A stretch of 64,000 nucleotides of DNA from a virus, in IMG/VR virus record IMGVR_UViG_3300009509_000095, one strand, 5' to 3'. Both the position numbers and the translations under genes were made by a program. This document shows, one piece after another, positions 3,121 through 3,920 of the stretch. Numbering within the stretch: the stretch's first letter is position 1; every line of letters starts with the position of its first letter. Under the pieces are notes generated by a model, which worked only from the letters and a program-made list of their open reading frames with translations, did no database searches and was not told the origin of the DNA.

Positions 3121-3920
3121 ATGTGGCAACGTCAGAACCTGCAACGGTAGGAAGCGGAGGACATGAGAACATCCGGAGGGAGGGAGACAAGCGGTCGGTA
3201 GGACGTTGTGTGTGATGAGAAGGCGGACGGAGAGACGGTGAGGCTAAGCGCAGGTCCAGTTGTCGAATCGCTGGAGCGTGGGTTTGGATGCTTGCGCGGA
3301 AGTACGTCGGATGTCCGGTCGGATTCGTGGAACGTTCATGCGGTGGAACGCAAGCTCAGCGGCATGTGCGGTGAGACGTGAGGTTGCCTGGGAGGAATGT
3401 TCATTCGGACGAATGGTAGCCTGATGAGCAGGAACTAGCCCCCGGGAGGTTCGACTCCTGCCGGGGGCGCTAGTGCAGCAGTCAGGTGCTACGTCGGGTC
3501 GCACGCTCTGGAGGAATGGGCGGACGCACATTCGTACTTCTGCTTGCCGGATCGGGCGAAAGGCAGACAGGGAGGGAGCGTGAGCCATGATGGGCGCAGG
3601 TTGGGAAGTGTGATCGTCAGGACGAGCGCCCGGACGAGGAAGCGCTAGGAGGGGCGCAGGCTGGAGAGAGGCTTCGGCTGAAGGCATGGAGGTAAACAGA
3701 GCGGCGGGCAGAAGGGGAAGTCGTGGGAAGGCTTGGCGGTACGGCAAAAGGCATGAACGAACGTAGAGTCGCAAAGCCGTGCCCACGTCTAGGAGTCTGG
3801 TGGTAGCAAGATTGGTACCGAGGTCAGACCGATGGATTGTTCCAGTGGTCAACAGGCAGACTGGAGGCCGGTCGGCACGAGGATTGGTAACGCTGTTGAA
3901 GTAGTAGGCCGAATGAATGG
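3121..3920 (+). ncRNA. putative ~800-nt G/A-rich noncoding transcript (begins with 9-codon leaderless mini-ORF MWQRQNLQR)
   Basis: No plus-strand ORF >=60 aa for 800 nt despite high GC; strong purine skew; immediately downstream of a consensus promoter. Confidence 0.35.

What the first reader, a model, noticed from the sequence alone, without database searches (positions are those of the whole stretch)
3121..3920. 800-nt G/A-rich noncoding stretch directly downstream of a consensus promoter
The promoter at 3087 fires onto an ATG that opens only a 9-codon ORF (MWQRQNLQR). There is then no plus-strand ORF of 60 aa or more for about 800 nt in a 60%-GC genome, where random ORFs are usually long. 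The segment is strongly purine-skewed (GGAGG and GGAAG tracts) and contains GC-rich hairpins such as cccccgggagg..cctgccggggg at 3441-3470. The only large ORF there is antisense with low-complexity Pro/Ser/Leu composition. This is possibly a long structured RNA, an RNA decoy, or a decayed gene.
Basis: seen in the sequence. Interest (0 to 1): 0.55.

Follow-up and report, generated by a model that had tools for sequence, protein, structure and literature searches.

The report
Four-base G-repeat RNA array beside phage RAMP gene
The 800-base "non-coding G-rich stretch" is a long array of four-base units that each start with a G. It sits next to a phage gene for a Cas7-like (CRISPR-type) RNA-binding protein, so it is probably the RNA partner of a new, unreported variant of the recently described phage "VIPR" RNA-guided systems.

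Summary
Window 3121-3920 follows a near-consensus promoter, has no plus-strand ORF of 60 aa or more, and is the strongest G>C skew in the 64 kb. Its antisense ORF has no real homologues.

The anchor position is G in 78% of units. Local period-4 power is 17.8 sd above dinucleotide shuffles, while periods 3, 5 and 6 sit at null. The signal starts near 3170 and stops at 3925.

The downstream gene (4173-5267) encodes a winged-helix domain fused to a Cas7/Csm3-like RAMP fold. Homologues down to 33% identity, in other metagenomic contigs (some with phage-type neighbours) and a Planctomycetota MAG, have the same G-rich flanks on the gene strand. The period-4 signal is clear (z≥4) in 17 of 21 flanks tested.

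The closest known system is VIPR (2026 preprints): a solitary phage RAMP with pentanucleotide GGY/NN guide arrays. This locus fails two defining features. The repeat is 4 nt, not 5, and the protein shows no sequence link to Vipr.

Best reading: a VIPR-like RNA–RAMP system with a tetranucleotide register. There is no expression or target evidence. Verdict: new variant of a known kind, interest 0.75.

The parts
3087..3114 (+). Sigma-70-type promoter TTGACA-16-TATAGT. The transcript would start at about 3121.
   Evidence: 11 of 12 matches. The -35 region and upstream bases are conserved in L001. Transcription itself is not shown.
3121..3150 (+). 9-codon ORF (MWQRQNLQR) at the predicted transcript start, probably incidental.
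   Evidence: It lies before the periodic signal begins.
3170..3394 (+). GNNN tetranucleotide-repeat block 1: 56 units, with the anchor position G in 43.
3395..3471 (+). Structured island that interrupts the repeat phase. It holds small hairpins and a GC-rich hairpin at 3438-3468 that resembles a tRNA acceptor/T-arm minihelix (7 bp + 4-5 bp, loop TTCGACT).
   Evidence: The hairpin is conserved in both flanks of the L001 gene, with 2 compensatory pairs among 3 copies. It is not a tRNA or tmRNA.
3472..3583 (+). Short repeat blocks containing the best-conserved island, 3492-3563 (86% identical to L001 952-1023).
3584..3695 (+). GNNN block: 28 units, anchor G in 25.
3696..3925 (+). GNNN block: 56 units, anchor G in 41. 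It ends in TGAATGAATGGTTGAATGAATG, which is conserved in L001 directly before the RAMP gene.
3244..3972 (-). Antisense 242-aa ORF, judged spurious: a by-product of the C-poor plus strand.
   Evidence: No Pfam or PHROG hit. Only its own copy plus one low-complexity hit among 1.84e9 proteins. Fragmented in L001. Fails the codon-usage score.
3925..4176 (+). 83-aa Cys-rich (CxxC…CPEC…CPDC) ORF whose stop overlaps the RAMP start codon (ATGA). It is specific to this lineage and absent in L001 and the other loci.
4126..4145 (+). Terminator-like hairpin plus a T run inside the end of the 83-aa ORF, just before the RAMP ribosome-binding site.
   Evidence: consensus scan only.
4173..5267 (+). Gene for a 364-aa protein: an N-terminal PadR/MarR-like winged helix (about residues 30-101) and a C-terminal Cas7/Csm3/Cmr4-like RAMP domain (about 150-360). 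It carries a conserved MSPARGxQTG glycine-rich motif.
5268..5560 (+). Downstream G-rich flank, also with period-4 G units (anchor G 83% against 57±4% in shuffles).
   Evidence: z 4.1.
5541..5614 (+). Long hairpin (CCCCAGGTAGG … CCTACCTGGGG) that closes the downstream flank.
   Evidence: Read from the sequence. Function not tested.

Best explanation
Window ~3170-3925, together with the shorter flank 5268-5560, is a non-coding array of about 190 tetranucleotide units. One position of each unit is G and the other three are free (GNNN). The array lies downstream of the promoter at 3087, on the same strand as the adjacent gene.

That gene encodes a winged-helix domain fused to a Cas7-like RAMP. I propose the array is the RNA partner of this protein, by analogy with VIPR systems:
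- RAMP protomers polymerise along the repeat RNA, one per unit.
- Each protomer holds the invariant G and presents the variable bases.
- The variable bases recognise a nucleic-acid target, most likely DNA of competing phages or prophages, giving silencing.
- The conserved hairpins and islands that interrupt the repeat phase act as handles, tails or processing sites that separate individual RNAs.
- The fused winged helix may replace the separate DNA-binding accessory protein of some VIPR types.

Shown here: the periodic array, its strand, the RAMP fold, and the conserved gene–array association.

Inferred: transcription, protein binding, one protomer per 4 nt, guide function and target type.
For: 1. 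Periodicity. Period-4 G signal has z 17.8 against dinucleotide shuffles, with periods 3, 5 and 6 at null. Autocorrelation peaks at every multiple of 4 up to 32. The signal begins at about 3170 and ends at 3925, exactly the gene-free stretch. It is the only long run of this kind in the 64 kb. Anchor G is 78% against 58±3% in shuffles, and the other positions are near-uniform.

3. The association is conserved. 17 homologue clusters (34-100% identity) were found. All loci with enough flank have G-skewed flanks (skew peaks 0.3-0.59) on the gene strand, and none has a C-rich flank next to the gene. Period-4 z is ≥4 in 17 of 21 flanks. These include a Planctomycetota MAG locus with 36% protein identity (z 16.8). 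No other neighbouring gene is conserved.

4. Sequence behaviour fits a variable array with conserved handles. Against L001 the gene is 83% identical in DNA, but the array aligns only in islands. In L010 and L011, phase-block borders coincide with repeated conserved motifs.

5. Precedent. VIPR systems are phage RAMPs flanked by long intergenic arrays of G-anchored short repeats, with one protomer per repeat and the Gs sequestered (bioRxiv 10.64898/2026.04.26.720920 and 10.64898/2026.04.26.720927).

6. Positive control. My method recovers period 5 in the phage SUSP1 vrRNA arrays (period-5 z 17.2 in the downstream array, period-4 z -1.8).
Against: - There are no expression data. The promoter and terminator are consensus matches only.
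- A terminator-like hairpin lies between the array and the RAMP gene.
- The RAMP family shows no sequence relation to SUSP1-type Vipr (hhalign probability 0.1%). The link to VIPR therefore rests on fold and locus logic only.
- The G-loop and thumb were not inspected residue by residue.
- Phase blocks are 60-230 nt (15-56 units), far longer than the 9-16 units of a vrRNA.
- The anchor G is only 73-91% conserved.
- The most distant subgroup (L013, L014, L015, L019) has weak or mixed periodicity.
- No target was found under 3-, 4- or 5-nt DNA registers in the window and loci, nor under the 3- and 4-nt registers in two exact-pattern scans of IMG/VR.
- Only three copies support the hairpin covariation.
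Confidence: 0.6

Rival explanations
1. The array is a cis-regulatory leader or 3' UTR. The RAMP protein, or its winged helix, coats its own mRNA flanks to autoregulate translation or stability. There is no trans target.
For: The arrays are contiguous with the gene on the same strand in all loci. The array runs right up to the gene's ribosome-binding region in L001 and L023. No target was found.
Against: Autoregulation would not need up to about 190 units, arrays of up to about 1.2 kb, or arrays on both sides of the gene. It would not need free variation at three of every four positions. In the window an 83-aa ORF and a terminator-like hairpin separate the array from the gene.
Confidence: 0.15
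2. The composition is a passive consequence of being a long untranslated transcript. G-rich, C-poor RNA avoids Rho loading, or a G-rich non-template strand forms R-loops that prime replication. The RNA sequence itself has no role.
For: Strong G>C skew confined to the untranslated stretch directly after a promoter. It is established knowledge that Rho utilisation sites are C-rich and G-poor. In L002 a primase gene follows the downstream flank.
Against: Neither idea predicts a phase-coherent 4-nt G periodicity. Neither predicts depletion of GGG runs (21 against 37.7±4.1). Neither predicts a specific, conserved link to one RAMP gene family.
Confidence: 0.07
3. One reading: a large structured RNA, or a decoy or sponge for a host factor (for example ribosomes through GGAGG, or CsrA through GGA).
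For: GGAGG and GGA are modestly enriched (z 3.0 and 3.3). There is a conserved hairpin with two compensatory pairs and a conserved 72-nt island.
Against: The fold z-score is -1.0. There is no Rfam family. Most of the stretch cannot be aligned even with a close relative. A.GGA is not enriched (z 0.2). The GGAGG excess follows from G at a spacing of 4.
Confidence: 0.06
4. A decayed or unrecognised protein-coding gene on either strand.
For: A 242-aa antisense ORF exists and was called as a gene on a near-identical contig.
Against: It has no homologue among 1.84e9 representatives apart from its own copy and no Pfam or PHROG hit. The ORF is broken in L001. There is no period-3 signal (z 0.1). It fails the codon-usage score.
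Confidence: 0.02

Closest known systems
VIPR (Viral Interference Programmable Repeat) systems: Vipr RAMP plus vrRNA (bioRxiv 10.64898/2026.04.26.720920 and 10.64898/2026.04.26.720927, 2026)
   Same: - A phage-encoded solitary RAMP-fold protein outside any CRISPR locus.
- The gene is flanked on one or both sides by long intergenic stretches on the gene strand.
- Those stretches are arrays of very short G-anchored repeats with free positions, interrupted by conserved elements.
- A DNA-binding winged-helix function is associated: a separate vap gene in some VIPR types, fused to the RAMP here.
   Different: - The repeat unit is 4 nt with one conserved G (GNNN). VIPR units are 5 nt (GGY/NN, NNNGG, YNNNG or NNNNG); the preprint describes a pentanucleotide motif across all seven types.
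- The arrays are purine-rich, and phase blocks span 15-56 units instead of 9-16.
- The protein is 364 aa with a fused winged helix, against about 195 aa for SUSP1 Vipr.
- The protein has no profile-profile similarity to SUSP1-type Vipr.
- No conserved accessory gene was found.
- Nothing here has been tested experimentally.
Cas7-family backbone proteins of class 1 CRISPR-Cas (Csm3, Cmr4, type VII Cas7, Cas7-11)
   Same: These are the best structural matches to the C-terminal domain. They are RAMPs that polymerise along an RNA with a fixed nucleotide register.
   Different: There is no CRISPR array and no second RAMP gene in the window; other cas genes were not searched for systematically. The register would be 4 nt rather than 6. 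The protein is a winged-helix fusion and is phage-encoded.
tRNA-like minihelices and tRNA-like processing signals
   Same: The hairpin at 3438-3468 has a 7-bp stem stacked on a 4-5-bp stem with loop TTCGACT. In L001 it is followed by G-CCA.
   Different: ARAGORN finds no tRNA or tmRNA here and Rfam has no match. The L001 loop departs from the T-loop consensus. Processing by RNase P, RNase Z or the CCA-adding enzyme is conjecture.

Membership tests
VIPR system | Solitary RAMP-fold protein (RRM core, G-loop, thumb) that is not part of a CRISPR-Cas locus. | tested here: met
VIPR system | The protein belongs to the Vipr sequence family (reachable from X1U2U4 / SUSP1 Vipr). | tested here: not met
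   hhalign of the 17-member family profile against a 30-member SUSP1-type Vipr profile gives probability 0.1%. An hmmsearch with the Vipr profile finds nothing in the window or loci. RAMPs diverge beyond sequence detection, so this does not exclude distant common ancestry.
VIPR system | Carried by a phage or mobile element. | tested here: met
   The window encodes a terminase large subunit and a portal protein. Some relatives lie on contigs with phage-type neighbours such as primase and helicase genes.
VIPR system | The gene is flanked by long intergenic regions that carry the RNA genes. | tested here: met
   About 800 nt upstream and about 300-475 nt downstream in the window. Flanks of 225-1250 nt in the relatives.
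VIPR system | The RNA is made of tandem pentanucleotide repeats (GGY/NN, or NNNGG, YNNNG, NNNNG). | tested here: not met
   Period-5 z is -2.0 and period-4 z is 17.8 in the window. No tract of at least 5 GG units in 5-nt phase lies in 3121-3920. The positive control, SUSP1, gives period-5 z 17.2.
VIPR system | A conserved structured 3' tail follows each repeat tract. | tested here: inconclusive
   Conserved islands and a hairpin with 2 compensatory pairs interrupt the phase blocks. RNA ends are unknown and only 3 copies are available.
VIPR system | Processed RNAs of about 100 nt that co-purify with the protein; RNA-guided DNA binding and silencing. | not testable with these tools
   This needs sRNA-seq, pull-down and reporter assays.
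VIPR system | The variable positions match targets in competing phages under a gapped rule. | tested here: inconclusive
   No match above background under 3-, 4- or 5-nt DNA registers in the window plus 14 loci. Two exact 21-base patterns, for the 3- and 4-nt registers, were absent from IMG/VR. The search space was small.
CRISPR-Cas class 1 | A CRISPR array of 24-40-nt direct repeats with spacers. | tested here: not met
   TRF and repeat scans find none in the window.
tRNA / tmRNA / Rfam-described RNA (including hammerhead and large ornate RNAs) | A match to the covariance model or to ARAGORN. | tested here: not met
   No Rfam match at gathering thresholds in the window or 14 loci. Only chance-level hits at E≤10 in 2900-4200. 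ARAGORN finds nothing in the region or the loci. The CUGAUGAG at 3422-3429 is not part of a hammerhead.

The most novel reading that the evidence does not exclude
This is a second, independent "repeat code" for RNA-guided recognition. A Cas7-like RAMP reads RNA in a 4-nt register (one anchored G and three programmable bases per protomer). That register lies between VIPR (3 anchored + 2 programmable) and CRISPR Cas7 filaments (1 flipped + 5 paired). The family, found here in environmental metagenomes and one Planctomycetota MAG, would be a new type of programmable RAMP system with a built-in DNA-binding domain. It could also be an evolutionary bridge between VIPR-like and CRISPR backbones.
Probability: 0.3. 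Interest if true: 0.9.

Novelty: new variant of a known kind. Interest (0 to 1): 0.75.

Why it matters
VIPR was described only in 2026. It was presented as a single pentanucleotide code read by one ancient RAMP family.

A RAMP that is unrelated in sequence, fused to a winged helix and tied to tetranucleotide G-anchored arrays would have three consequences:
- Periodic-repeat RNAs read by RAMP filaments would be a broader principle, with more than one register.
- A different number of programmable bases per protomer would be available for engineering.
- There would be a concrete, testable intermediate for how Cas7-type crRNA binding arose.

It also explains a class of long "empty" G-rich intergenic regions in metagenomic phage contigs.

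Tried and rejected
- Rfam at gathering thresholds and at E≤10: nothing.
- ARAGORN for tRNA or tmRNA in the region and loci: nothing. I first suspected a tmRNA-like or tRNA-like RNA because of T-arm-like motifs, including CCGGGTTCGATTCCCGG…CCA in L002.
- Hammerhead ribozyme, suggested by CUGAUGAG at 3422: no model match, and no stem II/GAAA context.
- Whole-stretch folding: z -1.0.
- BLAST of the region against phage genomes: no match. tblastn of the protein against phages: no match. IMG/VR scans for relatives of the protein and for the hairpin: none.
- Antisense ORF as a gene: rejected.
- CRISPR-like or tandem repeats by TRF: none in the region.
- Canonical 5-nt GGYNN tracts in the region: none.
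- G-quadruplex: no motif, and GGG runs are depleted.
- CsrA or Shine-Dalgarno sponge: only modest enrichment, explained by the periodicity.
- Shared motif search across flanks: only short enriched words such as ACGAAC/GTTCGT and GTAGG. GAACGAACGTA occurs once per array in the window, L001 and L002. Its meaning is unknown.
- Sequence link to Vipr: none. Pfam and PDB sequence searches with the family profile give only weak winged-helix hits.
- Target searches: negative.
- The afdb50 fold library was unavailable, so the published Vipr seed accessions could not be checked structurally.

Full report
**1. The observation**

The promoter at 3087-3114 is TTGACA-16-TATAGT, matching 11 of 12 consensus positions. 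The ATG at 3121 opens a 9-codon ORF. Plus-strand ORFs within 3121-3920 are 57, 54 and 41 aa, so none reaches 60 aa.

The stretch is 40% G, 23% A, 20% C and 17% T. GC skew is 0.25-0.46 in every 200-nt window from 3101 to 3900. The window-wide mean is 0.02 with sd 0.12, and this is the longest such run in the 64 kb.

A crude codon-usage gene map leaves 2871-4124 as the largest gene-free gap. The description is therefore correct.

**2. Not a gene and not a known RNA**

- The 242-aa antisense ORF has no Pfam or PHROG hit.
- It finds only its own copy, plus one low-complexity hit, among 1.84 billion representative proteins.
- It is split into pieces in the closest relative, L001.
- It fails the codon-usage score.
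- Rfam finds nothing at gathering thresholds in the window and only chance-level hits at E≤10 in 2900-4200.
- ARAGORN finds no tRNA or tmRNA in the region.
- The whole stretch folds no better than shuffles (z -1.0).

**3. Relatives**

The downstream gene (4173-5267, 364 aa, no Pfam or PHROG family) has 17 homologue clusters at 34-100% identity. All come from metagenome sources (Logan, JGI, ENA).

I fetched their contigs. A further locus comes from a Planctomycetota MAG.

In L001 the protein is 79% identical and the layout is the same: promoter, about 770 nt of G-rich gene-free DNA, then the gene. The gene is 83% identical in DNA. The leader aligns only in islands:
- window 3492-3563 matches L001 952-1023 at 86%;
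- two short blocks appear in swapped order;
- the last ~25 nt (TGAATGAATGGTTGAATGAATG) are conserved.

All loci with enough flank carry a G-skewed stretch (skew peaks 0.3-0.59, 225-1250 nt) directly upstream and/or downstream of the gene. It is always G-rich on the gene strand. No other neighbouring gene is conserved.

The unit conserved in evolution is therefore: G-rich flank, gene, G-rich flank.

**4. The protein**

An AlphaFold model built from the family alignment has mean pLDDT 81.5.

- Foldseek against the PDB gives type VII Cas7, Cas7-11 and Csm3 chains at E 1e-6 to 1e-4.
- The best viral matches in BFVD are RAMP-superfamily proteins of uncultured phages.
- A glycine-rich motif, MSPARGxQTG, is nearly invariant near the C-terminus.

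The gene therefore encodes a winged helix fused to a Cas7-like RAMP.

**5. The literature lead**

A full-text search turned up two 2026 preprints on VIPR systems.

- VIPR is a solitary phage RAMP (Vipr) whose gene is flanked by long intergenic regions.
- Those regions encode vrRNAs made of 9-16 tandem pentanucleotide repeats (GGY/NN, with NNNGG, YNNNG and NNNNG variants) plus a conserved tail.
- One protomer binds each repeat and sequesters the Gs.
- The NN bases read double-stranded DNA with a one-base skip.
- Seven types are described, all with a pentanucleotide motif. Some arrays are interspersed with hammerhead ribozymes.

**6. Testing that lead on the sequence**

No tract of 5 or more GG units in 5-nt phase occurs in 3121-3920, and period-5 power is at null. 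G shows a strong period of 4 instead.

- Whole-region power is 10.1 at period 4 against about 1 at other periods.
- Phase tables give chi-square p values of 9e-4 for the window region and as low as 7e-10 in relatives. Two coding controls were also run: the RAMP gene is flat (p 0.52) and the 877-aa MVP-like gene is nearly so (p 0.023).
- Local power rises at about 3170 and collapses at 3925, exactly at the edges of the gene-free stretch.
- Mean local power is 5.15 against 0.97±0.23 in 300 dinucleotide-preserving shuffles (z 17.8, largest null 1.73). Periods 3, 5 and 6 are at null.
- G autocorrelation is positive at lags 4, 8 and so on up to 32, and negative at 2, 6 and 10.
- Among all 756-nt windows of the 64 kb on both strands, the top values all fall on this region. 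The 99th percentile elsewhere is 2.0.

Written in fours, one position is G in 73-89% of units within each long block. A phase-tracking model gives anchor G 78% against 58±3% for shuffles. Pooled over 17 flanks, the anchor is 73% G and the other three positions are near-uniform.

GGG runs are depleted (21 against 37.7±4.1).

**7. Family-wide conservation and a control**

Period-4 z-scores against shuffles:

| Flank | z |
|---|---|
| Window upstream | 17.8 |
| Window downstream | 4.1 |
| L001 upstream / downstream | 13.7 / 17.0 |
| L002 upstream / downstream | 17.6 / 14.9 |
| L003 | 4.5 |
| L007 upstream / downstream | 8.2 / 10.6 |
| L010 | 17.2 |
| L011 upstream / downstream | 5.7 / 4.7 |
| L012 | 6.0 |
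| L016 | 4.1 |
| L018 | 9.8 |
| L023 (Planctomycetota MAG) | 16.8 |

The most distant subgroup (L013, L014, L015, L019) is weak or mixed.

The same method applied to the published VIPR locus of phage phiSUSP1 (KT454805) finds period 5 in both intergenic flanks of a 195-aa and a 146-aa gene. The downstream array scores period-5 z 17.2 and period-4 z -1.8. The method therefore separates the two registers cleanly.

**8. Anatomy of the array**

Phase-coherent blocks in the window are 3170-3394, 3584-3695 and 3696-3925. Between them lie shorter blocks and a structured island at 3395-3583.

The island holds a GC-rich hairpin at 3438-3468. It has a 7-bp stem stacked on a 4-5-bp stem with loop TTCGACT, and so resembles a tRNA acceptor/T-arm minihelix.
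- It recurs in both flanks of the L001 gene, with two compensatory pairs among the three copies.
- In L001 it is followed by G-CCA.
- L002 has a hairpin with the same closing stem.

In L010 and L011, repeated conserved motifs lie at phase-block borders, spaced about 230-430 nt apart. The motifs are GAAAGAAAATGGAA in L010 and TTCAGCGGTTCGTCCGC in L011.

This fits "variable repeat tract plus conserved handle" modules. RNA ends are unknown.

**9. Is it a VIPR?**

It works like one on every point that can be read from sequence: a solitary phage RAMP, long flanking arrays of short G-anchored repeats on the gene strand, and conserved interrupting elements.

It fails two defining features:
- The repeat unit is 4 nt, not 5.
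- The protein family has no profile-profile similarity to a 30-member SUSP1-type Vipr profile (hhalign probability 0.1%). No canonical Vipr ORF exists in the window or loci.

It also lacks a conserved accessory gene and carries the winged helix as a fusion.

No source of the 17 clusters is NCBI or UniRef. The VIPR survey started from NCBI NR, so this family was probably outside it. Literature searches found nothing on tetranucleotide repeats with RAMPs.

I therefore file it as a new variant of the VIPR kind, not as a member of the described family.

**10. Mechanism and its limits**

Proposed mechanism:
- The promoter at 3087 transcribes the array.
- RAMP protomers bind one GNNN unit each through the anchor G.
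- The exposed variable bases recognise a target.
- The hairpins and handles delimit RNAs.
- The winged helix adds DNA contact.

Only the sequence features and their association are shown. Transcription, binding, register and targeting are inferred.

Target searches were negative but shallow. A terminator-like hairpin (4126-4145) and a lineage-specific 83-aa Cys-rich ORF lie between the array and the gene. The ORF's stop overlaps the RAMP start codon.

**11. Rival explanations**

- Autoregulatory binding array without a trans target.
- Passive Rho-evading or R-loop-forming composition. This does not explain period 4 or the link to the gene.
- Structured RNA or decoy: weak support.
- Decayed gene: rejected.

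**12. Verdict**

Interest is 0.75. Novelty is "new variant of a known kind". Confidence in the RNA-partner-of-RAMP reading is about 0.6.

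Noticed in passing
window 22756-25389 (+): An 877-aa ORF matches Pfam MVP_shoulder (E 1.6e-29) and Vault_3 (E 5e-10). This is a major-vault-protein-like gene inside what looks like a phage genome.
   Followed up: no
window 18338-18412 (+): ARAGORN calls a tRNA with an undetermined identity and a 4-base anticodon (tgcg). It ends …GGTCC-ACCA. It could be a frameshift-suppressor-like or degenerate phage tRNA.
   Followed up: no
L001 41-528 (+): Directly upstream of the promoter and tetranucleotide array, the closest relative carries a canonical pentanucleotide GGYNN array (period-5 z 16.8), with a recurring TGGCAGTT motif. 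It looks like a classical VIPR vrRNA array. No canonical Vipr gene is on the 6-kb contig, which ends at the array, and the window has no counterpart.
   Followed up: partly
window 6214-6241 (+) and 3087-3114 (+): A second promoter-like site shares the block CTTGACACCGTGATATACG with the promoter at 3087. It sits before a 212-aa methyltransferase-like gene (phrog_15480). L001 has the equivalent at about 3143.
   Followed up: partly
window 3925-4176 (+): An 83-aa Cys-rich (zinc-ribbon-like) ORF lies between the array and the RAMP gene, with an ATGA stop/start overlap. It is absent from every relative except the near-identical contigs.
   Followed up: partly
L023 (JALORE010000001.1, Planctomycetota MAG Prado173), 2640-4092: This is the only hit in 185,579 species genomes. 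It has a 36%-identical RAMP gene preceded by a very regular period-4 array, which hints at Planctomycetota as the host group.
   Followed up: partly
window 5396-5404 and 5574-5582; L001 2503; L011 3137, 3561, 3877: A short motif, GGTTCGTCC, often inside a small hairpin (GCGG-TTCG-TCCGC), recurs in the G-rich flanks of distant relatives. It may be a handle or a processing signal.
   Followed up: no
window 3755-3765; L001 3125-3135; L002 5968-5978: The 11-mer GAACGAACGTA occurs exactly once per array, near its 3' end, in three loci. ACGAAC and GTTCGT are the most enriched hexamers across all flanks.
   Followed up: partly
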